Shown here piece after piece: positions 10,931-60,460 of a DNA stretch of 64,000 nt. Origin of the DNA: an uncultured Methanosarcinales archaeon (lineage in GTDB: Archaea > Nanobdellota > Nanobdellia > Woesearchaeales > GW2011-AR9); NCBI GenBank assembly GCA_964434885.1, contig CAYSWQ010000001.1:11327-75326 (forward strand), written 5' to 3'. Position numbers and translations under genes: made by a program. Each line of letters starts with the position of its first letter. The stretch's first letter is position 1. Under the pieces are notes generated by a model. It did not search any database and was not told the DNA's origin. It was given only the letters and a program-made list of their open reading frames with translations.

Positions 10931-11073
10931 TGTTACCCACCTCGAATACTATCTTATGCACCCCTATATATTGTATAAACTTCGTAACGCCTAGTATATT
11001 TAAACATTTATAGTTTGGAACATATATGATTAAGAAGATGTATATTTAAAAGTTGTGGTTTTTAATTGGTAAT

Positions 11074-12978
11074 ATGCTCTCGGATGAACGAAAAAAAGAA
11101 TTGTTGTTTCCTCACGAAGAAGTTAGGAATTCTCAAGAAGAATTAATTCTAGATGTAGAAAAAACACTAATGGACAAAGGACAATTATTAGCAAATGCTC
11201 CGACTGGTTTAGGGAAGACTTCTTCAGCATTAGGACCAGTATTAAATCATGCTTTAAAAAATAAATTGACAGTTTGGTTTTTAACCAATAGACACACACA
11301 ACATAGATTGGCAGTAGAGACGCTAAAGTTAATACAAGATAAATTTGGTTTGAAATTTAGTTGTGTTGATTTGATTGGAAAGAAATGGATGTGTAACCAA
11401 GACGTTAAAGAATTGTATTCTCAAGAATTTAATGAGTTCTGCAAAAGCATCACTGAAAAAAAAGAATGTGAATTTTTGAATAAAGTTAAAGAGAAAAATA
11501 AATTAACTGTAGAAGCAAAATTATTGTTAGAAAGGTTGGAAAAGAAAGGAGTTTTACATAATGAAGAGATTATTGAAATTTGTCAAGAAGGTGGTTTTTG
11601 TAGTTATGAAATTTCTTTAGCCTTAGCTAAAAAAGCAAAAGTGATGATTGGAGATTATTACTATATTTTTAACCCATTTATTCAAGATCGGATCTTTGGT
11701 AAAATAAATCATGAATTGGAAAAAACAATTTTAGTTATTGATGAAGCACATAATCTACCCAATCGAGTAGTAGAAATGTTGAGTACTGTATTAACAACAA
11801 ATATGTTGAAGAATGGAGTTTCAGAAGCTAGAAAATATGGTTACTTTAATGCGGCAGATCATTTAGATGCCATAAAAAAAGTTTTGGAAAACTTAAATAA
11901 TTCTCAACGACAAAGTTCTTTAAATGAAGGTTTTACTGCCAGTAGCAAGATAGGAAAAGATAATGAAAGAAAAGTAACTAAAAATGATTTTTTGAATCAA
12001 GTGAAAGAAGTTGCAGATTATGAAATTATGGTTAATGAATTAGAAATAGCTGCGGATGATATTAGGAAAAAGAAGAAAAGAAGTTATGTGGGTGGGGTAA
12101 TTAGTTTTTTGGAATCTTGGACTGGGGAAGATGAAGGCTATACTCGAATCATATCTGAGAAAGAAGGTCGTTTTGGAAGATATATTAGTTTGAATTATCA
12201 TTGTCTAGATCCATCTTTAGTTACTAAAAAAATATTTGATCAGGTTTATGCGACAGTATTGATGAGCGGTACTTTGAATCCAACTTTTATGTATAAGGAT
12301 GTTTTGGGGATGAAAGGGATAGAGAAAGATTATCCCAACCCTTTTCCAAGTGAAAATAAATTAACTTTAATTGTTCCCGAAACTAGTACCAAATATAATT
12401 TACGAGGAGAAGTAATGTATCAAAAGATTGCAGAGAAGTGTTCTGAAATGTTAGATTTAATTCCAGGTAATTGTGCCATCTTTTTCCCGTCTTATTATTT
12501 ACGAGACCAAATTGGATATAAAATTAAAGAAGGAAAGAAAAAGTTTTGGGAGAAGAGTGAGATGAGTAAGGAAGAAAAAGAAGAATTTCTGGAAGATTTC
12601 AAAAAAGGGAAGGAAGAAGGAGGAGTTCTTCTTGGAGTAATGGGAGGTAATTTTGGAGAAGGAGTAGATTTACCAGGAGATTTATTGCAAGGAGTGGTGA
12701 TTGTTGGTGTTCCTTTGGGTACACCAGATTTGAAAACTAAAGAAGTAATCAAATATTTTGATGAACAATATGGTAAAGGATGGAATTATGGATATCTTTT
12801 TCCAGCAATGAACAAATGTTTGCAGAGTGCAGGAAGATGTATTAGATCAGCAGAAGATCGAGGAGTAGTTATTTATTTAGATGAGAGATTTGCTTGGCAA
12901 AATTACTATTGTTGTTTTCCTCGAGAAGGGTTGATTGTGACTAAAGATTATAAGAAGTTTTTAGAAGAATTTTTTTAA
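11074..12978 (+). CDS. xpd: XPD/Rad3-family 5'-3' DNA helicase (Fe-S)
   Basis: Walker A APTGLGKT, DEAH box VIDEAHNLP, four-Cys Fe-S insertion, C-terminal helicase motifs. The ORF track begins at an upstream TTG (11053); the first ATG is 11074. Confidence 0.8.
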   Translation: MLSDERKKELLFPHEEVRNSQEELILDVEKTLMDKGQLLANAPTGLGKTSSALGPVLNHALKNKLTVWFLTNRHTQHRLAVETLKLIQDKFGLKFSCVDLIGKKWMCNQDVKELYSQEFNEFCKSITEKKECEFLNKVKEKNKLTVEAKLLLERLEKKGVLHNEEIIEICQEGGFCSYEISLALAKKAKVMIGDYYYIFNPFIQDRIFGKINHELEKTILVIDEAHNLPNRVVEMLSTVLTTNMLKNGVSEARKYGYFNAADHLDAIKKVLENLNNSQRQSSLNEGFTASSKIGKDNERKVTKNDFLNQVKEVADYEIMVNELEIAADDIRKKKKRSYVGGVISFLESWTGEDEGYTRIISEKEGRFGRYISLNYHCLDPSLVTKKIFDQVYATVLMSGTLNPTFMYKDVLGMKGIEKDYPNPFPSENKLTLIVPETSTKYNLRGEVMYQKIAEKCSEMLDLIPGNCAIFFPSYYLRDQIGYKIKEGKKKFWEKSEMSKEEKEEFLEDFKKGKEEGGVLLGVMGGNFGEGVDLPGDLLQGVVIVGVPLGTPDLKTKEVIKYFDEQYGKGWNYGYLFPAMNKCLQSAGRCIRSAEDRGVVIYLDERFAWQNYYCCFPREGLIVTKDYKKFLEEFF

Positions 12979-13304
12979 ACATCAAAACCTCTTTTCTTGC
13001 GAGAATATCTTGCTTCTTCAATCATGTTGTTGATATTAGGTGTTCCTACACAATTGTATCTGCGACATATTGATGGTCTTTTATGATAGATAGAACATTT
13101 TCTTTCTTCTTCATCAAGGAAAACACAAGGCCCAAATTGAGGGTGGGTTTTGTTTTTAAGATAATAATGTTTTCCCGATAGAACTAGGTTTTCTAAACCA
13201 ATGGTCTCTACTTCTTTTGGACGGACTCTTTTTTTGAGGTAATAACAGCAATAGTTGTAGCAATAATTTTTTTTAGGTAATTTACAAATGGCTGGTTTAA
13301 CCAT
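12975..13304 (-). CDS. YkgJ-family (UPF0153, CxxCxxCC) Fe/Zn-binding cysteine-cluster protein
   Basis: ...CYNYCC... N-terminal cluster and ...CVFLDEEERKCSIYHKRPSICRRYNC matches the YkgJ pattern. Confidence 0.55.
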   Translation of the reverse strand: MVKPAICKLPKKNYCYNYCCYYLKKRVRPKEVETIGLENLVLSGKHYYLKNKTHPQFGPCVFLDEEERKCSIYHKRPSICRRYNCVGTPNINNMIEEARYSRKKRGFDV

Positions 13305-13457
13305 AATAAAGAGAATATTGTGGAGTTAATTAAGGTTATTAAGCTAAAAAGGACTATTACTACCCCAATATAGTATTGTTCCTTTTTAAACAACCAGTAT
13401 ACAAAAACGTAACATTTATATACTTGTTTAACTTTTCTAAAAATATTAAGATCATAA

Positions 13458-13497
13458 GGGCTCCACCCTTATTCTACCACCCCTCACTCAGGAGCCC
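13458..13497 (-). other. GC-rich stem-loop (7-bp stem GGGCUCC/GGAGCCC) downstream of the transglutaminase-like gene; possible terminator or small RNA
   Basis: gggctcc-N26-ggagccc in an otherwise AT-rich spacer, followed on the minus strand by a U-rich run. Confidence 0.3.
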
Positions 13498-13505
13498 TGA
13501 TCTTT

Positions 13506-14153
13506 TTACTCTAAATATCTTTTCTTAGAATTAGTATATTTGTAATGAATCTCGCCAAACTTACAATCTTGGCAAGTTGAATCTAAGTTGATCCAATTGT
13601 TTTCTGTTTTGTAAGAAGAGATTGCTTCTGGAATTTTAACTTGGATGTAAACATGTCTAGGAACAAAAACAAATCTGGTTTGGAAACCGACAGATTGTAA
13701 TAATGAAGATAAGAGAATTGAACTGTCGTCACAATCTCCGGCAGTAGATGAGAAGCTCTCTTGAGGAGTTTTATAATATTCATATTTCAAAGGGTCATTA
13801 ACGTAGTTGAAGTTCTTTTGGACAAAGTAAAACAAAGCTTTGGCATTGCAAACTTTATGGGTGTTTGGACAAGATTGAGCTACTATCTGATCTGCTATTC
13901 TTTTAATATCTGAAGTAGTTTGAATATAATTTCTGATATCGGAAGAAGTAATGTTGGGAATCGATAGTTTAGGTAGGTTTAATTGATTTAAAGTAGGAAT
14001 CTGCTTTGGTTCAGGATTTTGTTTTAATCCATAACTAGGAACTACCCACATAACAACAATTAAAATAAGAAATAAACCAATAACAATTTTGAAGAATATT
14101 TTATAACCTGGTTCTTTTTCATCTTCAATAGTTTCTTCGTGATGTTCTTTCAT
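13506..14153 (-). CDS. Membrane-anchored transglutaminase-like cysteine protease superfamily protein
   Basis: N-terminal TM; core GDCDDSSILLSSLLQSVGF...PRHVYIQV gives the Cys-His-Asp arrangement of transglutaminase-like domains. Confidence 0.6.
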   Translation of the reverse strand: MKEHHEETIEDEKEPGYKIFFKIVIGLFLILIVVMWVVPSYGLKQNPEPKQIPTLNQLNLPKLSIPNITSSDIRNYIQTTSDIKRIADQIVAQSCPNTHKVCNAKALFYFVQKNFNYVNDPLKYEYYKTPQESFSSTAGDCDDSSILLSSLLQSVGFQTRFVFVPRHVYIQVKIPEAISSYKTENNWINLDSTCQDCKFGEIHYKYTNSKKRYLE

Positions 14154-14188
14154 TTTATGACTAGATTAAACATATTTATTAAATTAAC

Positions 14189-15889
14189 TTAATAACAAGT
14201 TTCTTGAGCATCCGTTAAAGAAAGAGTGAATCCACTTAATAATTTGTTTACGCCAGAGTTGGGATGAGTAATTGGAGAACTAGTTTGTCCAACTCTCAAA
14301 ATAATAACTTCTTTACCAACAACTTTTACCTTAGAATCAACCAAATCTGTTTTCTCTATTTCAATAGGAACTTTGATTGGGGCACCAGTACAATAAGAAG
14401 GAATTGTTTTAATAGTCCAAGCTAAAGCTCCAGCCGCAGTATAACTACCTTGTTTGGCATGTAGATTATAAATTTCTCCATCACTAGTGAGAATTGCAAT
14501 ATCGTGAACTTGGCATTTCTTAGTATTAGGACATTCGGTTTGATATTCTTTTAGTAAAGAACCACATTTTTTGTTAATACAAAACTGGCCAGGACTACAT
14601 TCATTGTTGTCATTGCAAGTTGTGGTTGTAGTAGTAATTGTTTTCGTTTTGTTCTTTTCATATTCTTCTTCATCATCACAAACATTATTTTTGTTTTTAT
14701 CTAAACAACAACCACCAACAGTTTCAATGTGGGGAGGTGTACAAACAAAAGGTTTACTTTCTTCAAAAGCATATTGGGTTTGGATTGCTTTTCCAGAAAG
14801 AGCCCCAGTTTTCATTAAAACAGCAAAAACAATGATAAAAACAATTAAACCAATTCCTCCAAAAATTAGTAATTTCTTTTTATTTTTATTTACCGACGAT
14901 TCTTTATCTCTAACATGAGAACTAGTTTTGGTTGTTTTTGATTGGTGAGTTTTTTTAGTATGGTCTTTCTTACGTCCCATTAACATATTGAGATGAGAAG
15001 GTTTTCTTTTACTTTTCTTGTGTTTTTCATAACGATGAGATAAAACTTCTTTGTAAGCTTCATCTGCTTGTTCTTCAGTCCAACCAGCTTGCAATAATTC
15101 TCTTCTAATTACAGAATAAGGTTTATCTGCATTCATGCTTTGGTGAATATACTTCATCAAATCTAAGGGGAGATCTGGAGTGTGGGCTCTTTTGTATAGA
15201 ACAAATAAAAGTACTCCAGCAGCTGTGAAAATTGTGATTAAGATAAATAAAACTGTTTTAGTTAAAGGTCTTGATTTTTCTACATTAGACAATTTTGTGG
15301 TGATATTACTTACTTTAGTGTCAGTGCTTTTAACATTTTTTTGTAATGAAGCTAATCCAGTGGAAACTGAATTAACTGTTTGAGAAGTTTGAGAAACTGT
15401 ATTTTTAATTGATTGTTGACCTGTTTTTAAACTAGTAAGATCGGAACCTAATTTTTGAACATTGAGATTTATTTTTTGGATATTTAGTGTATTAGTGTTC
15501 AGAGATTTATTTAATGCAGTTAGTTCTGATTGTAAACTATTTATTTGTTGAACCACATTAAAATAAGATGTATTGGTTGAGGTTGTATTTGTTGCATTTC
15601 TAAGAATTTTTGTTTTTTTACATTGAACTCCAACACAAGTGTATTTTGGACCAAATTTAGTTTGACAAGTGGTTGTGTTTCGACAGTAATATTTGTAATA
15701 ATTAGTTGTGTTGGTTGTTGAGGTGGTGTTGGAAGAAATTGTTTTTTGACAAGTATAATTGACACAAGAGTAAGCAGTACTATTAAATTTAGTTTTACAA
15801 GAGAGATCAGAAGTACAACTTATAGCTAAACTAACAGCTACAAAAACTAGTAAAAACACTCCCAGGATTACTAAAAACCTCTTTTTCAT
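14189..15889 (-). CDS. Cys-rich, sequon-rich two-pass membrane surface protein with coiled-coil segment
   Basis: Signal peptide; N-terminal Cys-rich domain with many N-x-T sites; coiled-coil; TM1, about 110-aa basic cytoplasmic loop, TM2; C-terminal Cys-rich extracellular domain with TTTTTTC mucin-like run. Confidence 0.5.
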   Translation of the reverse strand: MKKRFLVILGVFLLVFVAVSLAISCTSDLSCKTKFNSTAYSCVNYTCQKTISSNTTSTTNTTNYYKYYCRNTTTCQTKFGPKYTCVGVQCKKTKILRNATNTTSTNTSYFNVVQQINSLQSELTALNKSLNTNTLNIQKINLNVQKLGSDLTSLKTGQQSIKNTVSQTSQTVNSVSTGLASLQKNVKSTDTKVSNITTKLSNVEKSRPLTKTVLFILITIFTAAGVLLFVLYKRAHTPDLPLDLMKYIHQSMNADKPYSVIRRELLQAGWTEEQADEAYKEVLSHRYEKHKKSKRKPSHLNMLMGRKKDHTKKTHQSKTTKTSSHVRDKESSVNKNKKKLLIFGGIGLIVFIIVFAVLMKTGALSGKAIQTQYAFEESKPFVCTPPHIETVGGCCLDKNKNNVCDDEEEYEKNKTKTITTTTTTCNDNNECSPGQFCINKKCGSLLKEYQTECPNTKKCQVHDIAILTSDGEIYNLHAKQGSYTAAGALAWTIKTIPSYCTGAPIKVPIEIEKTDLVDSKVKVVGKEVIILRVGQTSSPITHPNSGVNKLLSGFTLSLTDAQETCY

Positions 15890-15928
15890 ATTACTATCTC
15901 CATAAGGTTTATTTTTTCATTTATATAT

Positions 15929-16585
15929 TTATTGCCTAGATACAAGTTCAAACACCACCTGAAAGGCTTTTTTTAGTTCTTTTTCTTGAATAATAATCAA
16001 ATGTTCCGAGTAACAAATCATCGAATCAATAATACTAATATTGTTTGCTGCAAGTTCGTTGGAAAGATAAGCAAAAACACCAGGAGTTTTAGTGATATCT
16101 GTATCATAGATAATTGTTAGTTCTCCCAGGTTTTTTTCCAAATTAACAATTTCTTTTTGGTTGAAAATCTCTTTGGTTTCTTTTAATGTTTTCTCGTCAA
16201 TAATTATCTTGATATATTTATTAACTTCAAATATTCTTAATGTGTCTCCCCCTTGGAAATCTATTTTTTGATAGAGTTTTGCTAATTTGTTACGGATAGT
16301 TTCATTTTTTCTTAATAATATAGAAGCTAATTTGGTTTGAGTGGAAATTTTTGATTTTTTTAACAGGCAATAGATATTTTTTAATTGATCTTTTTCTTTG
16401 ATATCTAAATGATATCTTCTTATGGCAGTGATAACTGCGTTTAAAGAACAAGACATATGGAGTTCTTTGATTATTTTTTTGGCTAAAGCTCGGACATTAA
16501 TCAGTTCATCAGCGAGGTTTTTCTTTATGGTGGTGTGATTATCTAAATATCTCCATACTTCTCGGTTGATGTTTTTTGTTTTCAT
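15929..16585 (-). CDS. Hypothetical protein with C-terminal ACT-like domain
   Basis: C-terminal GVFAYLSNELAANNISIIDS... resembles an ACT regulatory fold; no family assigned. Confidence 0.35.
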   Translation of the reverse strand: MKTKNINREVWRYLDNHTTIKKNLADELINVRALAKKIIKELHMSCSLNAVITAIRRYHLDIKEKDQLKNIYCLLKKSKISTQTKLASILLRKNETIRNKLAKLYQKIDFQGGDTLRIFEVNKYIKIIIDEKTLKETKEIFNQKEIVNLEKNLGELTIIYDTDITKTPGVFAYLSNELAANNISIIDSMICYSEHLIIIQEKELKKAFQVVFELVSRQ

Positions 16586-16742: not shown

Positions 16743-17360
16743 ATGGGGAATGAAAAAATGAAGCAACATGATTTAGTAAAACAAGTTGTTATCGCATTCA
16801 AAGAAACTGTTGATCGGGGTGAACCAGATGAAGAAATGAGAGAACAATTGATGGATGCCATTGATGGCAGATATTTAGATGTAGTTGATCGTCAATTGAA
16901 AGAAAAGATTTTTGATCAAGCTGTTGAGGAATATGATGCTTTTTTAGAATTTGGTCAAATTTTGAATACTTTCAAAGATTTGATTGGAGATAATGGTCCA
17001 AAATTTACGGCAAATATTCTTTTTAATCAAGGGGCAGCTTATGAAGGATTGGGAAAGAAAGATCTAGCTATTGAAACGTATCAAAAAGCATTGGAACAAG
17101 AAGATATGACTAATCAAACATTAACTAGAGCGAATTATAATCTAGGAACAGTACTAGCTGAGAAGGGAAATTTTCGTGAAGCGCAAAAACACCTCTTGGA
17201 AGCTCAAAGAAAAGGAATGAACCACCCTAGATTAAGACAGAATTTAGATTATGTAGCTCGTCAATTGGATTTCATTGAAGATAATACTGGTCCAAATCAA
17301 ACTCTTGAACAGGCTCAACGGTTAAAACATAAGTTGTATAAGCAAACTCCTTGTGGTTGA
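16743..17360 (+). CDS. TPR-repeat protein
   Basis: Several 34-aa TPR-like units (AAYEGLGKKDLAIETYQKALEQ; ANYNLGTVLAEKGNFREAQKHLLEAQ); GC content visibly above the flanks. Confidence 0.55.
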   Translation: MGNEKMKQHDLVKQVVIAFKETVDRGEPDEEMREQLMDAIDGRYLDVVDRQLKEKIFDQAVEEYDAFLEFGQILNTFKDLIGDNGPKFTANILFNQGAAYEGLGKKDLAIETYQKALEQEDMTNQTLTRANYNLGTVLAEKGNFREAQKHLLEAQRKGMNHPRLRQNLDYVARQLDFIEDNTGPNQTLEQAQRLKHKLYKQTPCG

Positions 17361-17404: not shown

Positions 17405-18700
17405 ATGTTAGATATCAATTTGATTAGAGAGAAGCCTGAAGTGGTACGAAAATCAGAGAAACATAGAGGACACGATCCTAAACTAGTTGATGAAGTCTTG
17501 AAATTAGATGATAAATGGAAGAAAGACTTAAAGTTGATGGAAAAACTTAATCATCAACGGAATGTGGTTTCTCAAGAGATTAATCAAGCGAAGAAGAAGA
17601 AAGATAACAAGACTGCTGCGGCCAAGATTAAAGAAATGCGGGCAGTGATTGATAAAGTTCGTAAGCAAGAAGATAAAGCTGCTTTAGCTTTGGAAAAAAG
17701 AAATGAAGTAATGGAAAAAATAGGTAATGTCTTACATAAAAGTGTTCCGAAAGGGAAAGACGATACTGAGAATGAAGAAATTAAGAAAGTAGGTAAAAAA
17801 CCTAAGTTTAATTTTCCAATTAAAGACCATATTGAATTGGGTTTAGATTTAGATTTAATTGATTTAGAGACAGCAGCAAAGACATCAGGAGCAAGATTTT
17901 ATTATTTGAAGAATGAAGCAGTTTTATTAGATATGGCTTTACAAAGGTTTGCTATTGATAGATTATTGGCTAAAGGATATCAATTAATTTATACTCCTTT
18001 TATGTTGAATCGAGCAGCTTTGAAAGGAGGAGTTAATCTTAGTGAGTTTGAAGATACAATCTATAAGATTGAAAATGAAGATTTGTATTTGATTGCTACT
18101 TCAGAACATCCATTGGTGGCGTTGAGGAAAGATCAGATTTTGAATGAAAAAGAATTGCCGATTAAAATAGTGGGAACTAGTACTTGTTTTAGAAAAGAAG
18201 CAGGTAGTCATGGAAGAGATACTAAAGGAATCTTTAGAGTACATCAATTTACCAAAATTGAGCAAATTGTATATTGTAAACCCAAAGAATCTTATACTTT
18301 TTTTGATGAAATTCAAAAGAATGCAGAAGAAATGTTTAAAGAGCTTGAATTACCATTTAGAGTAGTTAGAATCTGTACAGGAGATATTGGAAATAAGCAA
18401 GCTTTGCAGTATGACATTGAAGCATGGTTCCCCGGACAAAATAAGAAAAATGGAGCTTACCGAGAAGTAACTTCATGTAGTAATTGTACAGATTATCAAG
18501 CAGTCTCTTTGAATACTAAATATTTAGATACTGAAGGTAAGAAAAAATATGTTCATTTATTGAATAATACTGCTTTAGCTACGGCACGAGCAATTGCTGC
18601 TATCTTGGAGAACTTTCAGACTAAAGAAGGTAATGTGAAGATTCCTAAAACTTTATGGCCATATATGGGTGGAGTGAAGGAAATAAAGTCTAAAAAGTAA
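17405..18700 (+). CDS. serS: Seryl-tRNA synthetase
   Basis: N-terminal coiled-coil arm, class II motifs (FRKEAGSHGRDTKGIFRVHQFTKIE; GNKQALQYDIEAWFP). Confidence 0.9.
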   Translation: MLDINLIREKPEVVRKSEKHRGHDPKLVDEVLKLDDKWKKDLKLMEKLNHQRNVVSQEINQAKKKKDNKTAAAKIKEMRAVIDKVRKQEDKAALALEKRNEVMEKIGNVLHKSVPKGKDDTENEEIKKVGKKPKFNFPIKDHIELGLDLDLIDLETAAKTSGARFYYLKNEAVLLDMALQRFAIDRLLAKGYQLIYTPFMLNRAALKGGVNLSEFEDTIYKIENEDLYLIATSEHPLVALRKDQILNEKELPIKIVGTSTCFRKEAGSHGRDTKGIFRVHQFTKIEQIVYCKPKESYTFFDEIQKNAEEMFKELELPFRVVRICTGDIGNKQALQYDIEAWFPGQNKKNGAYREVTSCSNCTDYQAVSLNTKYLDTEGKKKYVHLLNNTALATARAIAAILENFQTKEGNVKIPKTLWPYMGGVKEIKSKK

Positions 18701-18769: not shown

Positions 18770-19864
18770 TTGTTTCTTTCTTTGTTGTTTATGAGCTTAT
18801 TCAAAGATATGTTAAAAAGTGGAGAGAGTTTGTTTAGAGATACTATTGTGCTTTCTTATGATTTCCAACCAAAATTATTGAAATATCGTGAGAATGAACA
18901 GGTGCGTTTTGCAGTAGCAATTAGGCCTTTGTTGCAGGAGAGGAGTGGGCGTAATTTGTTTGTTTATGGGGCCCCAGGAATTGGAAAAACTACTGCTTGT
19001 AAACATGTAATTAGAGAATTAGAAGAAAGTGGGGAAGACGTAGTTCCCATTTACATTAATTGTTGGAAAGAAAATACAACATTTAAGATTTTTACAAAAA
19101 TTTGTGAAGAATTCGGACATAAGTTTTTACAACAGAAAAAAACTACTGATTTGTTTAACATCATTAGAGCCAAATTGAATAAAGCGGGAACAAGTGCAGT
19201 GTTTATTTTTGATGAAATAGATAAGTTGGATGATTTTGATTATTTATATACAATTCTAGAGGATATCTATCGGAAAAGTATTTTTTTAATTACTAATTAT
19301 AAAGAAAGTTATAATGATTTAGATGAACGAATTAAAAGTAGATTGGGGGTCGAATTTCTTTATTTTAGACCTTATAATAAAGCAGAGATAAAAGGGATTT
19401 TGGAAGAGAGGAAAAAGTATGCTTTTGTTCCAGGAGTGTGGGGAACAGAATCTTTTGATAAATTAGTTGATAAAACTGCCCAGTTGGGTGATTTAAGAGT
19501 TGGTTTGTATTTAATGAAAGAAGCTTGTATGTTAGCGGAAGATAAAAGTTTGAAAAAAATAAGTTTAGAAGAAGTTGATAGTGCAGTTAAAAAAGTAGAT
19601 GAATTTCAAATCAAACAAAAAGATGGTTTAGATGAAGAATTGATTAACATTTTAGATCTGATTAAAAATAATTCTGAAAGTAGAATTGGAGATTTGTTTG
19701 GTTTATATGAAAAGAATTCTGGAAAATTAAGTTATAAAAGTTTTAAAAGGAAAATTGATAAATTGGATGAAGGAAGATTCATTTCAACTAAACAAGATCG
19801 TTCTGGTGGCGGAGTGACTACGATTGTTAGTTATGGTGCTGAAAAGAAATTAACTGATTTTTGA
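18770..19864 (+). CDS. cdc6: Orc1/Cdc6 replication initiator (AAA+ ATPase plus winged helix)
   Basis: Walker A GAPGIGKTT, Walker B IFDEID, sensor regions, C-terminal wH; the true start may be the internal Met (MSLFKDML..., 18791). Confidence 0.8.
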   Translation: MFLSLLFMSLFKDMLKSGESLFRDTIVLSYDFQPKLLKYRENEQVRFAVAIRPLLQERSGRNLFVYGAPGIGKTTACKHVIRELEESGEDVVPIYINCWKENTTFKIFTKICEEFGHKFLQQKKTTDLFNIIRAKLNKAGTSAVFIFDEIDKLDDFDYLYTILEDIYRKSIFLITNYKESYNDLDERIKSRLGVEFLYFRPYNKAEIKGILEERKKYAFVPGVWGTESFDKLVDKTAQLGDLRVGLYLMKEACMLAEDKSLKKISLEEVDSAVKKVDEFQIKQKDGLDEELINILDLIKNNSESRIGDLFGLYEKNSGKLSYKSFKRKIDKLDEGRFISTKQDRSGGGVTTIVSYGAEKKLTDF

Positions 19865-28347: not shown

Positions 28348-28455
28348 AGTTATTATTCTGTAGAGGGTTGTTTTTATAAAGTTTTTGTTATTTTATTGAA
28401 TATGTCAGTATACTAAAGAGTAACATTTATATATTAATTTAATTTTTTATACCTA

Positions 28456-28845
28456 ATGGTTATCTTATTTGATTTATTTAATTTACCGGATGATATCTAC
28501 CAGATTGTTTTTGCAACTGAACAACAACAGTTAGTTGGTCGTTTGTTGGTGAGTCACCTTAAGAACAATGGAGGAGAAATTGGGAAAACAGAGATGAGTA
28601 TGTTTGCCATGAAATTACACGAAGGTGATGTTGTTATTAAAGGGAAAGGTAAATCTCCATTAGATCAAGCCACCAAGATTTCCTACAATAAAAGACAATT
28701 CTATGATCGAATATTAACGCCAATGAGAGGAATGGGTTTAATTGAATATGACCTATACAAGAAAACTTACAAATTAAGTGATAAATTTAACAAAATGATG
28801 ATTAAAGTGGGTATTATTTGGTTAAAAGAATTAGAAAAGAAATGA
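28456..28845 (+). CDS. Hypothetical protein
   Basis: 129 aa ORF with typical codon usage; no recognisable motif. Confidence 0.35.
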   Translation: MVILFDLFNLPDDIYQIVFATEQQQLVGRLLVSHLKNNGGEIGKTEMSMFAMKLHEGDVVIKGKGKSPLDQATKISYNKRQFYDRILTPMRGMGLIEYDLYKKTYKLSDKFNKMMIKVGIIWLKELEKK

Positions 28846-32158: not shown

Positions 32159-32470
32159 TTAACCAAATAATGCGCCTAATCCGGCAGCAGCGGCTTCTTC
32201 AGTTTTTTTATCATCTTCTTTTTTCTCTTCTTTCTTTTCTTCTTTAGCTTCTTCGGCAGGAGCAGCAGCAGTTGGAGCAGCAGCGACGGGGGCTACAGCA
32301 GCCTTTTTAACAGCTTCCTCAATATTAACTCCTTCTAAAGCAGTGACTAAAGCTTTAACTCTGGCTTCTTCAACTGTGACACCAGCAGCCTCAACCACTT
32401 TTTTAACATTATCTTCGTTAATATCTTTTCCTGCTTTGTGAAGCAACATAGCAGCATAGACGTATTCCAT
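32159..32470 (-). CDS. rpl12: 50S ribosomal stalk protein P1 (L12e)
   Basis: [26 protein letters not shown]...[13 protein letters not shown]; start taken at MEYVYAA rather than the upstream ORF-track ATG. Confidence 0.8.
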
Positions 32471-32498
32471 TTTTTTGACCTCCATTGAAATTTGAGTA

Positions 32499-34010
32499 TT
32501 AGTTTTCTTCTCTTAAAGTTCCTTGTTTCTTTAATTTTTCAAATAAGTTTTCTCCAGCTTCAACATTAGCATCTTTCTTTGGTTTTTCTGCTTCCGCTTT
32601 AGTTTTTTCTTCTTGAACTAAGTCGCTTGCTGAAGGAACTTCTTGAATAGCTGGTTTCTCTTCAACTATTTCTGATTTGTTTTCTGGTTCTTCTTTAGCA
32701 AATTGTTTTTTAGTAGCTTCAATAATATCTAAAGCAGCATCTTTTTGAGCTTCTGGAGTAGGATTTGGTTCTGAGGTTGGTTCTGGTTCAGGTCCAACCT
32801 CTTCTTGTTTTTCTTCCTCAACTGGTTTTTCTTCAACCGGTTCTTCTGCTGGAGATTCTTCTTTCTTTTCTTCTTCAGCAGGTTCAGTAGTAGGTTCTTC
32901 TGTAGGTGTTTCCTCAGGTTTAGATTCTTCAGCAGGAGCTTCTTCTTTAGGCTCTTCTTTTGGTTCTTCAGGTTTAGATTCTTCTGCAGGAGCTTCTTCT
33001 TTAGGCTCTTCTTTTGGTTCTTCAGGTTGAGCTTCCTCTTCAGGTTTGGCTTCTTCCTCTTGAACAGGTTCTTCTGCTGGAGCTTCTTCTTTCTTTTCTT
33101 CTTTAACTGGTTCTTCTGCAGGTTTATCTTCTGATTTTGATTCTTCTTTAGGTTTGGCTTCAGTCGAAGCTTCAATCTTAGCAGTCTCTTTCAAACTCAA
33201 AGCTTGCTGTTCAGTTTTAGCTAAAATCTCTTCTGTAGTTTCATCAGTTAAGATGTCTTGATCTAAAGCCAAATTACGTGAATCTTGAGCTGCTTTCTGT
33301 AATAATAATTCAATGTTATCTTTAGTTGGGTAACCAACTTCCATAGCTAAGTTGAATGCTTCTTGGAAGGCCACTCCAATGTTGTTTAAGTAAGCTTCTT
33401 CATCAACATGTAAGTCTTTACCAGCGAAAACAATTTTATCTTCCCAAGCAGCAACTAAATCTAGGCCAATTTCCATTGGTTGAATGTCTAATCTTTTTAA
33501 CATGCTAGCTAATTCTCCAGAAATAGTATCTCCTTCTTTAGCGACAACTGCATCGTCGGTGATTTTTAATTTTCCACCATCAACTTTGGTTTTAATACCT
33601 ACTGCAGCTAATTCAGAAATAATTGGTCCTGGAGCAAAATTAGTTGGTCCAGCTGGAACAACAATATCTTTTGGAGCTTCTTGTCCAGCTTTAGCAGGAG
33701 CTGAAGATTTGTTTTTTTCCAAAATTTTGTATAAAATAAAAGGATTTTCTTTAGATAATAAGACTGCAGGCATACCTTTGATTTTTTCAATCAGAGCATC
33801 AATGTTTTCTTTTTGTGAATTTTTTAAAGCTAATTGTAATAATCTTCTTCGAGCCATTACAATCAAAACATCTTTTTTTAGTAATTGTGCCCGCATGTTT
33901 TGTAGCTGTTGGGCAGGTAAATTCTGCATATTAACAATTGCAATAACAGGATAGTCTTTGATCTGTTGAGTTAACTTTTCTACCAATTTTTTCTTTTTAT
34001 CAGAGACCAT
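32499..34010 (-). CDS. rplP0: 50S ribosomal stalk protein P0 (L10e) with about 160-aa acidic Pro/Glu/Lys repeat extension
   Basis: N-terminal L10 domain ([32 protein letters not shown]...); C-terminal tail carries degenerate [18 protein letters not shown] repeats, including two exact 18-aa copies. Confidence 0.75.
32917..33024. repeat. 54-nt tandem direct repeat (2 copies, 1 mismatch) inside the P0 C-terminal extension
   Basis: ggtttagattcttc(a/t)gcaggagcttcttctttaggctcttcttttggttcttca occurs twice in tandem. Confidence 0.6.
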
Positions 34011-34011
34011 T

Positions 34012-34650
34012 TTATATCTTAACTGGTTTACCCATTGTTAATTTTAATTGAACATTCTTGATGTTTTGTTTTTCTTGAGGTACATTTTTAATTGTGGAAT
34101 TATAAACAGCCACAGCATTTTCTGCAATGTGATCATCACTTTGATCTTCTTTACCAATCATACATTGTAAATTGGTTGCTTTGTTATTAGATAATCTAAC
34201 AGTGGCTTGTAATTTTTTAATTAAAGGTTCTAAATTAGCATTTGGTGGAACTACACAACCTAGTTTTGGATTGGGCATTTTTCCTTTTGTACCTAATACC
34301 TTACCAAAGTTTTGAGCTACTTTAGCCATTAAATTTGCTTGAGCAATAAAATAATCATATTCTTGGGCTAATTTCTTAATAGCTTTAGGATCTGCGTATT
34401 TTGGAAAATCAGCTTCAGTAATAACCAAATCACAAACTTGTTTAGCTTGATCTTTTAATTCTGGACCAGAAAAGATAGCTATTTTTGGTTTTTTTGGTTT
34501 AGGATGAGGTAAAGTAACAAAGAAATCAACATTTTCAGATTTTGGATTAATACCTTTAAGATTAATAATTAAGTCATAAGATTGAGAGAATTTTCTTTTG
34601 GTCCCTTTCTTTAGTTCTTTTATTGCTTTCTCGACTTGTTGTTTATTCAT
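34012..34650 (-). CDS. rpl1: 50S ribosomal protein L1
   Basis: 212 aa, L1 family; conserved L1-P0-P1 order. Confidence 0.8.
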   Translation of the reverse strand: MNKQQVEKAIKELKKGTKRKFSQSYDLIINLKGINPKSENVDFFVTLPHPKPKKPKIAIFSGPELKDQAKQVCDLVITEADFPKYADPKAIKKLAQEYDYFIAQANLMAKVAQNFGKVLGTKGKMPNPKLGCVVPPNANLEPLIKKLQATVRLSNNKATNLQCMIGKEDQSDDHIAENAVAVYNSTIKNVPQEKQNIKNVQLKLTMGKPVKI

Positions 34651-56023: not shown

Positions 56024-56391
56024 TAGAGTAGAGTGGAATAAGCCACCTTCTGTCAGACCCAAAATATTCATTGAATATCGATGGTCTGTTTTAGCATTCT
56101 ACTAAGCGTGTCTAAGCACTTGCACCAACCGGGTCCAGAAAAAGCCTAAGCTTTTTAGGACCCCCGAGTTATACTCGGAGGGTTTCGCCGTTTCATCGTT
56201 CCCTTTGAGGACGTCGATGGATTAACTCGCTTATTTCTCAACAAGCTTCGCCATTTTCATTCCATAACTCAAAGGACGTGTCGTTTCTAAGCCAGAGCCA
56301 AGAGATTTCCTCTTCTCCGAAGAGCGGTCTTTGTGTGGTGGGTGGACTTTCCTCAGTCAAATTGACCGTTAGCTAAATACCACTACTACTC
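56024..56391 (-). ncRNA. rnpB: RNase P RNA (archaeal type A-like)
   Basis: Minus-strand transcript contains CR-I/P4 5' strand GAGGAAAGUCCACC and CR-V/P4 3' strand ACAGAAGGUGGCUUAU; 5' GAGUAGUAGUGG and 3' CCACUCUACUC form P1; the region is protein-free and GC-enriched relative to flanks. Confidence 0.75.
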
Positions 56392-60248: not shown

Positions 60249-60460
60249 GTGCGCGGCAGGGCTTTCGAAAAAAGTTGCACTTTTTCTAAATCATTAAGCA
60301 CAGCTTAATATTCGAACCTGCGTAGGTACTAAACCAACGGATGGCTCCCGAGTATTTCATCAGTCTGGATAGACCTCTTCACTCAATGACTTGAGTATGG
60401 ACTCATTAGCACCTTAATGCTAAACGAACCGTCCCGTTTGACCACTCCGGCACGCGCACA
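60249..60460. ncRNA. Candidate structured non-coding RNA of unknown class (about 210 nt)
   Basis: GC-enriched block in an AT-rich spacer; ends are perfect inverted complements (GUGCGCG...CGCGCAC); internal perfect palindromes (AUUAAGC-UGU-GCUUAAU, GAAAAAG-UGCAA-CUUUUUUC); K-turn-like GAGU-GAAGA ... UGAUGA-AAU-ACUC; TATA-like boxes on both sides. Confidence 0.4.

What the first reader, a model, noticed from the sequence alone, without database searches (positions are those of the whole stretch)
13506..16585. Transglutaminase-like membrane protein adjacent to a Cys-rich two-pass surface protein
A membrane-anchored transglutaminase-like domain (GDCDD...PRHVYIQV) is encoded immediately upstream of a 566-aa protein with two extracellular Cys-rich, sequon-rich domains. 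Those domains are separated by TM1, a basic cytoplasmic loop and TM2; there is also a coiled-coil segment and a poly-Thr run. Transglutaminase-like enzymes next to surface proteins suggest covalent maturation or cross-linking of an envelope component. An ACT-like small protein follows. A GC-rich hairpin (13458-13497) follows the transglutaminase gene on its strand.
Basis: partly seen in the sequence, partly recalled or inferred. Interest (0 to 1): 0.5.

Follow-up and report, generated by a model that had tools for sequence, protein, structure and literature searches.

The report
Unlinked archaeal envelope genes, hidden RNA
In a DPANN (Woesearchaeota-like) archaeon, a membrane-anchored transglutaminase-like cysteine enzyme sits beside a two-pass coiled-coil surface protein. 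Comparison with about 130 related loci shows the pairing is a local accident of gene order, and the "hairpin" after the enzyme gene is a conserved, undescribed small RNA gene on the opposite strand.

Summary
13506-14153(-) encodes a 215-aa single-TM transglutaminase-like protein (PF01841, 41 bits). Its Cys141/His167/Asp191 triad is conserved in 31 homologs. 14189-15889(-) encodes a 566-aa protein with signal peptide, Cys-knot modules, coiled coil, TM1, basic loop, TM2 and a Cys-rich C-terminal domain.

The proposed enzyme-substrate link is not supported. Of 80 species-level loci carrying the enzyme, only 5 have a homolog of the big protein within 10 kb, all in the closest clade and 0.6-2.9 kb away. 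In about half, the enzyme sits beside the ribosomal L1-L10-P1 operon. Homologs of the big protein usually lack the enzyme nearby.

The enzyme's nearest characterised relative is the bacterial adhesin-releasing protease LapG, but it fails the LapG family model. I read it as an autonomous extracytoplasmic cysteine protease or amidase with an unknown substrate.

The big protein belongs to an uncharacterised DPANN family (703 cluster representatives). Its C-terminal domain has no match among solved structures.

The GC hairpin (13458-13497) is the core of a roughly 60-nt small RNA on the + strand, with a conserved promoter, a covarying stem, an invariant C-rich loop and a U-tract. It lies downstream of the XPD helicase gene and is absent from Rfam.

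The parts
13506..14153 (-). Gene for a 215-aa membrane-anchored transglutaminase-like (BTLCP/LapG-like) cysteine enzyme. It has an N-terminal TM anchor at about aa 20-40 and a catalytic triad of C141/H167/D191.
   Evidence: PF01841 at 41.3 bits. 107 homologs, nearly all 208-238 aa. Conserved triad. Model pLDDT 89 with TGase-fold matches. The only PDB sequence-profile hits are LapG.
14189..15889 (-). Gene for a 566-aa two-pass surface protein ('BIG'). Order of parts: signal peptide, two Cys-knot modules, coiled coil ending in VSTGLASLQ, TM1, conserved cytoplasmic helical motif (..AGWxEE..AYK), TM2, Cys-rich beta-rich C-terminal ectodomain.
   Evidence: Sequence features. The architecture is conserved in 13 homologs. 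A profile of the C-terminal half finds 703 cluster representatives. No Pfam family matches. The C-domain model has pLDDT 80 and no PDB fold match.
15929..16585 (-). Gene for a 218-aa cytoplasmic protein with a weak C-terminal ACT-like region. It lies upstream of BIG on the same strand.
   Evidence: PF13840 ACT_7 at 26.1 bits, below the cut-off of 27. Weak matches to aspartate-kinase C-termini. Homologs lie upstream of BIG in L014 and L125 only.
13445..13507 (+). Candidate small non-coding RNA gene. It has a short leader, a 7-bp GC stem (13458-13464 / 13491-13497), a 26-nt C-rich loop (UUCUACCACCC..CUCAC) and a U-tract that overlaps the TGase stop codon. The 5' end is inferred.
   Evidence: Covariance-model hit at 13439-13506(+), 48 bits, E 7e-10. 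There are 45 distinct homologous instances. 6 of 7 stem pairs show compensatory changes, and no shuffle of 500 reached the observed values. U.G wobbles occur only on this strand. A T-tract of 4 or more follows the stem in 42/45. No Rfam match.
13393..13423 (+). Conserved archaeal promoter block (AACCAGTATACAAAAACGTAACATTTATATAC; TATA box at 13415-13422) that drives the small RNA.
   Evidence: The block is present 54-112 nt upstream of the loop core in 42 of 45 instances. A second copy at 28405-28434 lies 30 nt before the ATG of a 129-aa ORF. This calibrates the transcription start at about TATA+30.

Best explanation
Three independent features sit side by side because of lineage-specific gene order.

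(a) The 215-aa protein is an N-in/C-out membrane-anchored enzyme of the transglutaminase-like superfamily. It is closest to the bacterial BTLCP/LapG type. It most likely uses its Cys141-His167-Asp191 triad to hydrolyse, or possibly transfer, a peptide or isopeptide/amide bond in an extracytoplasmic substrate. That substrate is probably a cell-surface protein or glycoprotein, processed in trans. The acidic residues around the nucleophile (D140, D142, D143, D120, E125) may bind Ca2+, as in LapG. The gene is conserved and usually sits among housekeeping genes. It is not dedicated to the neighbouring 566-aa protein.

(b) The 566-aa protein is a glycosylated two-pass envelope protein. An N-terminal coiled-coil stalk tipped by small disulfide modules and a C-terminal disulfide-rich beta domain both face outward. 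A small conserved helical domain faces the cytoplasm. It is probably a structural or adhesive surface component of these DPANN cells.

(c) The GC hairpin is the body of a roughly 60-nt small RNA transcribed from the + strand (convergent with the TGase gene, co-oriented with XPD). Its invariant C-rich loop probably base-pairs with G-rich targets, such as Shine-Dalgarno-like sequences, or binds a protein.

What is shown: domain membership, triad conservation, fold, lack of synteny, RNA covariation, promoter and U-tract.
What is inferred: topology, protease rather than cross-linker chemistry, Ca2+ dependence, surface role of the 566-aa protein, RNA function.
For: TGase:
- PF01841 scores above its cut-off.
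- The triad and the flanking acidic residues are conserved.
- The model has pLDDT 89. Foldseek top hits are PNGase, LapG, putative cysteine proteases and PeiP/PeiW, at E 4e-5 to 1e-2 and probability about 1.
- The family profile hits only LapG chains in PDB sequence space. The shared motif is Y..D..(D/E)Y..TP.E....GDC(D/E)D.
- There are more K/R residues before the TM than after it (2.3 vs 1.3).

Independence of the two genes:
- Only 5 of 80 TGase loci have a BIG homolog within 10 kb.
- 41 of 80 have ribosomal L1 about 150 nt downstream on the same strand, with L10, P1, UPP synthase, AMMECR1 and RpoL nearby.
- BIG loci without TGase are listed.
- TATA-like sequences precede each gene (read).

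BIG:
- The architecture is conserved.
- The family has 703 representatives. They include about 70 full-length proteins and many stand-alone C-domain proteins of about 200 aa. 57 of 71 of those have N-terminal hydrophobic or lipobox-like leaders.

RNA.
Against: - No biochemical data exist for any family member.
- The positive-inside signal for the TGase anchor is weak.
- Fold similarity to LapG and PNGase is modest (TM about 0.3-0.45).
- The LapG equivalog model scores 14 bits against a cut-off of 320.
- In this genome the two genes are only 35 nt apart and could be co-transcribed. Absence of synteny elsewhere does not exclude action on the BIG protein in trans.
- RNA expression is not demonstrated.
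- The strand call rests on wobble asymmetry (19 vs 10 in my own count; 14 U.G with 0 unpaired at one pair) and on the promoter and U-tract.
Confidence: 0.6

Rival explanations
1. One reading: a LapG/LapA-like pair. The anchored TGase-like protease specifically cleaves, matures or cross-links the neighbouring two-pass surface protein, for example to release or fix an adhesin used for host attachment.
For: - The two genes are 35 nt apart on one strand.
- Both products are predicted to face outward.
- LapG is the nearest characterised relative.
- LapG cleaves at di-alanine motifs such as PAAG and AAAG (PMC6890996).
- The BIG C-domain carries GSY-TAAG-AL.W in a predicted inter-strand turn.
- A BIG homolog lies upstream of TGase in 5 related genomes.
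Against: - Adjacency is absent in 75 of 80 TGase loci and in most BIG loci.
- Where both genes occur, they are separated by 0.6-2.9 kb and other ORFs.
- The TAAG motif is present in only 69 of 143 family members, with variants such as TGAG, TAVG and SYAG. It looks structural.
- The enzyme is not a LapG ortholog (14 vs 320 bits).
- No LapD-like partner is present.
Confidence: 0.12
2. The enzyme is a true transglutaminase (an isopeptide cross-linker of the S-layer or envelope proteins) or a PNGase-like glycan amidase, not a protease.
For: - It belongs to the superfamily that also contains cross-linkers and PNGase.
- Mouse and yeast PNGase are among the top structural hits.
- A UPP-synthase gene (lipid carrier for glycosylation) is often just upstream in distant relatives (24 loci).
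- The neighbouring protein is rich in sequons.
Against: - PNGase similarity is no better than LapG similarity (E 3.7e-5 vs 4.6e-5, TMq 0.32 vs 0.44).
- The sequence profile picks LapG only.
- In my understanding, small single-domain prokaryotic members studied so far (LapG, PeiW/PeiP, CPR-C4) are hydrolases.
- The UPP-synthase proximity sits within a block of housekeeping genes.
Confidence: 0.15
3. The GC hairpin is only a (bidirectional) transcription terminator between the convergent genes.
For: A stem plus T-tract lies on the + strand. There is also a T5 run about 10 nt after the stem on the - strand. The element sits between convergent genes.
Against: - A roughly 20-nt loop sequence is nearly invariant across 45 distinct instances while the stem covaries.
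- A conserved promoter block lies directly upstream on the + strand in 42 of 45.
- In the window an antisense gene (CxxCxxCC) separates it from XPD, so it cannot simply end the XPD mRNA.
- To my knowledge, archaeal termination needs only oligo-T.
Confidence: 0.1

Closest known systems
LapG / BTLCP (bacterial transglutaminase-like cysteine proteinases, DUF920; PDB 4FGO, 4U65)
   Same: Both are about 200-aa single-domain extracytoplasmic proteins with a Cys-His-Asp triad. They share the signature around the nucleophile, Y..D..(D/E)Y..TP.E....GDC(D/E)D. LapG is the best PDB hit by sequence profile and among the best by fold. Acidic residues flank the Cys at the position where LapG binds Ca2+ (PMC4359373).
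   Different: This protein is archaeal. It is anchored by an uncleaved N-terminal TM rather than being a soluble periplasmic protein. The NCBIfam LapG equivalog scores 14 bits against 320. It has no LapD receptor, no type I secreted adhesin and no c-di-GMP circuit. It carries two extra conserved Cys pairs (C95/C102, C194/C197).
Pseudomurein endoisopeptidases PeiW/PeiP and CPR-C4 protease (small prokaryotic TGase-fold hydrolases)
   Same: They share the TGase/papain-like core, and the Foldseek matches have probability of at least 0.95. They are envelope- or surface-directed hydrolases of archaeal or ultrasmall-cell lineages.
   Different: E-values are weaker (2e-3 to 3e-2). There are no pseudomurein-binding repeats and no detectable sequence similarity. 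The hosts here are not known to have pseudomurein.
Peptide:N-glycanase (PNGase, PDB 2F4O/1X3W)
   Same: It is the top Foldseek hit (E 3.7e-5) and has the same catalytic triad type.
   Different: TM-score is only 0.32. PNGase is cytosolic and has a Zn-binding domain and Rad23-binding parts that are absent here. No sequence-level match was found.
C-rich-loop regulatory sRNAs of bacteria (e.g. RsaE/RoxS-type, which target Shine-Dalgarno regions); comparison from my own knowledge
   Same: Both are short RNAs with their own promoter, a stable hairpin presenting an unpaired C-rich loop, and a U-tail.
   Different: This RNA is archaeal and has no sequence or Rfam relationship. No target has been identified. 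The loop is only an imperfect anti-SD mimic.

Membership tests
Transglutaminase-like superfamily (Pfam PF01841 Transglut_core) | Profile score above the curated gathering cut-off | tested here: met
   41.3 bits against a cut-off of 23, E 2.1e-10, profile positions 6-107 of 108. PF01841 is precomputed for nearly all 107 homologs.
Transglutaminase-like superfamily (Pfam PF01841 Transglut_core) | Conserved Cys-His-Asp catalytic triad | tested here: met
   C141 and H167 are invariant. D191 is at least 90% conserved in 31 sequences, with one Glu.
Transglutaminase-like superfamily (Pfam PF01841 Transglut_core) | Papain-like alpha+beta TGase core fold | tested here: met
   The predicted model has pLDDT 89.2. 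Twelve PDB matches at E of 1e-3 or better are all TGase-fold proteins. This rests on a prediction, not on an experimental structure.
LapG / BTLCP | Score above the NCBIfam equivalog cut-off (NF045674) | tested here: not met
   14 bits against a cut-off of 320.
LapG / BTLCP | Signature around the nucleophile (..TP.E....GDCED..) with acidic Ca2+ ligands | tested here: inconclusive
   The aligned motif is shared: TPQES....GDCDD against TPIEA....GDCED. Ca2+ binding itself cannot be tested here.
LapG / BTLCP | Genomic association with a LapD-type receptor and a large secreted adhesin carrying a di-Ala site | tested here: not met
   No such neighbours appear in the window or in 80 loci. The neighbouring BIG protein has TAAG, but the motif is not conserved family-wide and the adjacency is not conserved.
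ACT domain (PF13840/PF22468), for the 218-aa upstream protein | Profile score above the gathering cut-off | tested here: not met
   26.1 vs 27 bits (ACT_7) and 17.4 vs 27 bits (ACT_9). It is marginal and is best called 'ACT-like'.
Any Pfam/NCBIfam family, for the 566-aa protein | Profile score above the cut-off | tested here: not met
Any Rfam 15 family, for the hairpin RNA | Covariance-model score at the gathering threshold, or E of 1 or better | tested here: not met
   There is no hit at gathering over the whole window apart from RNase P. Only noise at E 1.9-9.5 appears in the 181-nt region.
Box C/D sRNA, for the hairpin RNA | C box RUGAUGA near the 5' end and D box CUGA near the 3' end, forming a K-turn | tested here: not met
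   UGAUGA-like boxes occur in the leader of a few instances only (L121, L189). CUGA follows the stem only in the window (reading).
Structured non-coding RNA (generic) | Base pairs maintained by compensatory substitutions beyond controls | tested here: met
   88.5% of cells are paired. 6 of 7 pairs have double changes, in 38 cells. No shuffle of 500 reached the observed covariation score, and the slid controls score lower. Caveat: the alignment was fitted to the model.

The most novel reading that the evidence does not exclude
The most novel reading still open concerns the element first taken for a terminator. It may be the founding member of an undescribed archaeal regulatory RNA family in Woesearchaeales. 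Its invariant loop, UUCUACCACCCUCACCCCCUC, would act as an anti-Shine-Dalgarno-like decoy or a protein sponge. Such RNAs are essentially unexplored in DPANN archaea.

A second and less likely novel reading is an archaeal analogue of the LapG-LapA adhesin-release switch. The anchored protease would clip the BIG protein or its stand-alone C-domain relatives to control attachment to host cells.
Probability: 0.25. Interest if true: 0.6.

Novelty: new member of a known kind. Interest (0 to 1): 0.3.

Why it matters
DPANN archaea live attached to other cells, and their surface biology is almost unknown. This analysis separates a tempting operon story from what the comparative data support.

- **The enzyme.** It defines a compact, highly conserved anchored cysteine-enzyme family related to LapG. 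It is a tractable target for biochemistry.
- **The surface protein.** It defines a large DPANN-specific surface-protein family whose ectodomain has no match among solved structures.
- **The small RNA.** It flags a strongly promoted, structurally supported small RNA that annotation pipelines and Rfam miss. If it is a regulator, it would be one of the first conserved sRNAs described for this superphylum.

None of this is a major surprise on present evidence.

Tried and rejected
- **Profile search for more BIG homologs.** The word-indexed profile search added only 2 sequences because low-complexity candidates saturated it. The exhaustive search was needed.
- **First RNA alignment.** MAFFT plus RNAalifold mis-registered the stem and predicted a wrong structure. 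I replaced it with a covariance-model alignment.
- **Metagenome scan for the RNA loop.** Most of the 120 hits to the 16-mer were chance matches in coding DNA, and about 32 were genuine. The single viral-contig match is a chance hit inside a Gly-rich ORF.
- **Small-peptide reading of the RNA.** L007 has an ATG-started 21-codon frame, but this reading was rejected. The ATG is absent in the window and in L018, and the frame shifts in L183.
- **Other identities for the RNA.** K-turn, C/D box, H/ACA, origin-recognition box and G-quadruplex readings were considered and not supported.
- **RNA targets.** A search of the window for targets complementary to the loop found nothing beyond 8-mers.
- **LapG-type cleavage site.** The TAAG di-alanine motif in BIG was checked across the family and found only in 69 of 143 members.
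- **Bacterial-type promoter scan.** It is not informative for an archaeon.
- **Cluster look-up.** It gave no organism names.
Full report
**Source and setting.** The window is archaeal. It carries an archaeal RNase P RNA at 56027-56387(-) and has about 31% G+C. Homologs of its proteins that carry a name are labelled Woesearchaeota, Nanoarchaeota or Pacearchaeota. Around the finding the gene order is as follows:
- XPD/Rad3-type helicase, 11053-12978(+)
- CxxCxxCC protein, 12975-13304(-)
- GC-rich element, about 13450-13500
- TGase-like gene, 13506-14153(-)
- 566-aa gene, 14189-15889(-)
- ACT-like gene, 15929-16585(-)
- TPR protein, 16743-17360(+)
- seryl-tRNA synthetase, 17405-18700(+)
- Orc1/Cdc6, 18770-19864(+)

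**Check of the observation.** The 215-aa product matches PF01841 above its threshold (41.3 vs 23 bits). It has one hydrophobic anchor (about aa 20-40) and the motifs GDCDD and PRHVYIQV.

The 566-aa product has these parts:
- a hydrophobic N-terminus
- two C-x5-C-x10-C-x4-C modules
- 11 sequons
- a Cys-free heptad region (aa 111-208)
- two TM segments flanking a K/R-rich loop of 113 aa
- a C-terminal part with 12 Cys and a T6 run

The family HMM of the C-terminal domain also matches the N-terminal Cys modules. The same small disulfide module therefore occurs three times. The ACT assignment for the upstream 218-aa protein is marginal (26.1 vs 27 bits). The inverted repeat 13458-13464/13491-13497 is real and folds better than shuffles on both strands.

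**The enzyme.** A word-indexed search found 107 homologs. Nearly all are 208-238 aa and carry the same Pfam domain. In an alignment of 31 of them, down to 32% identity:
- C141, H167, D140, D143, C102, C194 and C197 are invariant.
- D191, C95, D120, E125 and D142 are at least 90% conserved.

The AlphaFold2 model is confident (pLDDT 89). Its best PDB matches are all transglutaminase-fold proteins: PNGase, LapG, putative cysteine proteases, PeiP/PeiW, TgpA and CPR-C4. A family profile searched against all PDB sequences hits only LapG chains. The aligned signature is Y..D..(D/E)Y..TP.E....GDC(D/E)D.

LapG is a Ca2+-dependent periplasmic cysteine protease with a C-H-D triad. It cleaves surface adhesins at a di-alanine site (PMC3032545, PMC4359373, PMC6890996). 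The protein here fails the LapG equivalog model (14 vs 320 bits). I therefore file it as a member of the transglutaminase-like superfamily that resembles LapG, not as a LapG.

An N-in/C-out topology is suggested by more K/R residues before the anchor than after it (2.3 vs 1.3) and by the conserved Cys pairs. This topology is inferred.

**The synteny test.** I fetched 80 species-representative genome loci encoding the enzyme, with up to 10 kb on each side.
- tblastn and a family HMM found a homolog of the 566-aa protein in only five: L012, L014, L016, L017 and L020.
- All five are in the sub-clade with at least 60% enzyme identity.
- All five lie upstream on the same strand, but 0.6-2.9 kb away with other ORFs in between.
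- In the other 67 loci (52% identity or less) there is none.

In those other loci the enzyme gene lies about 150 nt upstream of ribosomal protein L1 in 41 loci. L10, P1, UPP synthase, AMMECR1, RpoL and a methyltransferase are nearby. In this window the L1-L10-P1 operon is 20 kb away.

Conversely, BIG homologs sit next to SerRS/Orc1 without the enzyme:
- L007, L008 and L009
- L103, L108, L116, L161, L170, L179 and L200

The immediate juxtaposition seen here arises where two conserved blocks, [Orc1-SerRS | BIG] and [TGase | sRNA-XPD], abut. Each gene is also preceded by its own TATA-like sequence (reading). Action in trans cannot be excluded.

**The 566-aa family.** Thirteen full-length homologs share the whole architecture. 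This includes a conserved VSTGLAGLQ before TM1 and a cytoplasmic motif Y.T.HIK.GKKY..IK..L..AGW.EE.I..AYK. It also includes GKAI after TM2 and a C-terminal domain with 11 invariant or nearly invariant Cys.

An exhaustive profile search with the C-terminal half found 703 cluster representatives at E of 1e-3 or better, and 156 at 1e-30 or better. About 70 are full-length proteins. Many are proteins of about 200 aa that consist of the distal C-terminal sub-domain alone. 57 of 71 of those have an N-terminal hydrophobic or lipobox-like leader. Two variants (P0119 and an L008 paralog) swap in a different C-terminal domain.

The loop motif GSY-TAAG-AL.W recalls the LapG cleavage motif. It is TAAG in only 69 of 143 members, so I treat it as a weak lead.

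**The hairpin.** A 14-nt core of the element recurred downstream of the enzyme gene in related loci. A metagenome scan with the conserved 16-mer returned 120 stretches, of which about 32 carry the full element.

A covariance model built on the C-rich-loop strand gave these results:
- It found one copy in the window (13439-13506 +, 48 bits, E 7e-10).
- It found one copy in every near-clade enzyme locus checked except L010, which has only about 600 nt of downstream flank, and in the BIG-only loci L007 and L008.
- It found none in the 67 distant loci.

On the 48-sequence alignment, 88.5% of cells pair and 6 of 7 pairs show compensatory double changes, in 38 cells. No shuffle of 500 reached the observed values. 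One pair reads UA 18, UG 14, CG 13 and unpaired 0. These U.G wobbles would be C.A mismatches on the TGase strand. This places the RNA on the window's + strand.

Three further observations are consistent with that strand:
- 42 of 45 distinct instances have a T-tract of 4 or more directly after the stem on that strand.
- 42 of 45 have a highly conserved promoter block (..CCAGTATAC..GTAACATTTATATAC..) 54-112 nt upstream of the loop.
- The same block occurs at 28405-28434, 30 nt before the ATG of a protein gene. This gives a start near 13445 and a length of about 60 nt for the RNA here.

In the metagenome loci the RNA lies downstream of, and co-oriented with, XPD in at least 22 of 32. TGase or BIG converges on it from the other side.

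The loop UUCUACCACCCUCACCCCCUC is nearly invariant. No ORF is conserved across instances, and no Rfam family matches. No target was found in the window. Its function is unknown. A C-rich loop that pairs with G-rich, SD-like sequences is my leading guess.

**Verdict.** The operon-style interpretation is mostly not supported. The enzyme is a new sub-family member of a known superfamily. The big protein belongs to an uncharacterised but sizeable DPANN family. The supposed terminator is an unannotated conserved small RNA on the opposite strand. Overall interest is modest. The RNA and the surface-protein family are the parts worth following up.

Noticed in passing
window 13393-13507 (+): A conserved small RNA gene (promoter block, covarying 7-bp stem, invariant C-rich loop, U-tract) lies downstream of XPD. 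It is absent from Rfam. 45 distinct instances were found in related genomes and metagenomes.
   Followed up: yes
L007 8909-8950; also L016, L020, L126, L161, L183, L185, L014, L172: In a subset of loci the leader of the small RNA contains a conserved motif, AAAUAGGGAAAAAGAGGUGAUAG (seen first as CTATCACCTCTTTTTCCCTA on the other strand). It is absent from the window's copy and its meaning is unknown.
   Followed up: partly
window 28405-28434 (+): A second copy of the strong promoter block (CAGTATACTAAAGAGTAACATTTATATAT) lies 30 nt upstream of the ATG of a 129-aa ORF (28456-28845). This suggests a leaderless mRNA and a lineage-typical extended promoter.
   Followed up: partly
window about 60290-60460 (-): A GC-rich stretch with tRNA-like pieces (GCCGGAGTGGTCAAACGGGAC ... 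GGTTCGAAT) is preceded by a TATA-like box. ARAGORN finds no tRNA anywhere in the 64 kb, and Rfam finds nothing here even at E of 1 or better. It may be a multi-intron or otherwise atypical tRNA gene.
   Followed up: partly
window 56027-56387 (-): Archaeal RNase P RNA (RF00373, 105.5 bits). It is the only Rfam hit at the gathering threshold in the window.
   Followed up: no
window 32315-34650 (-): The ribosomal L1-L10-P1 operon is here. In more distant relatives the TGase-like gene sits directly upstream of this operon, but in this genome it is 20 kb away.
   Followed up: partly
L012 13839-14429; L014 15649-16284: Stand-alone ORFs of about 200 aa consist of only the distal C-terminal sub-domain of the 566-aa family. 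They lie a few kb beyond the TGase gene. Many such proteins exist, and most have lipobox-like leaders.
   Followed up: partly
L004 5398-5901 and 15 other loci: A basic ORF of about 167 aa (no Pfam family) often lies upstream of the TGase gene in related genomes. It sits between BIG and TGase in L004. No homolog is detectable in the window.
   Followed up: partly
window 12975-12978: The convergent XPD and CxxCxxCC genes overlap by 4 nt at their 3' ends. The CxxCxxCC gene is present between XPD and the small RNA in only some relatives (L202, L203, L018, L019, L022).
   Followed up: no
L008 4574-5971 and P0119: Paralogs or variants of the 566-aa family keep the N-terminal half, both TM segments and the cytoplasmic motif. 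They carry an unrelated Cys-containing C-terminal domain. The ectodomain is therefore modular.
   Followed up: no
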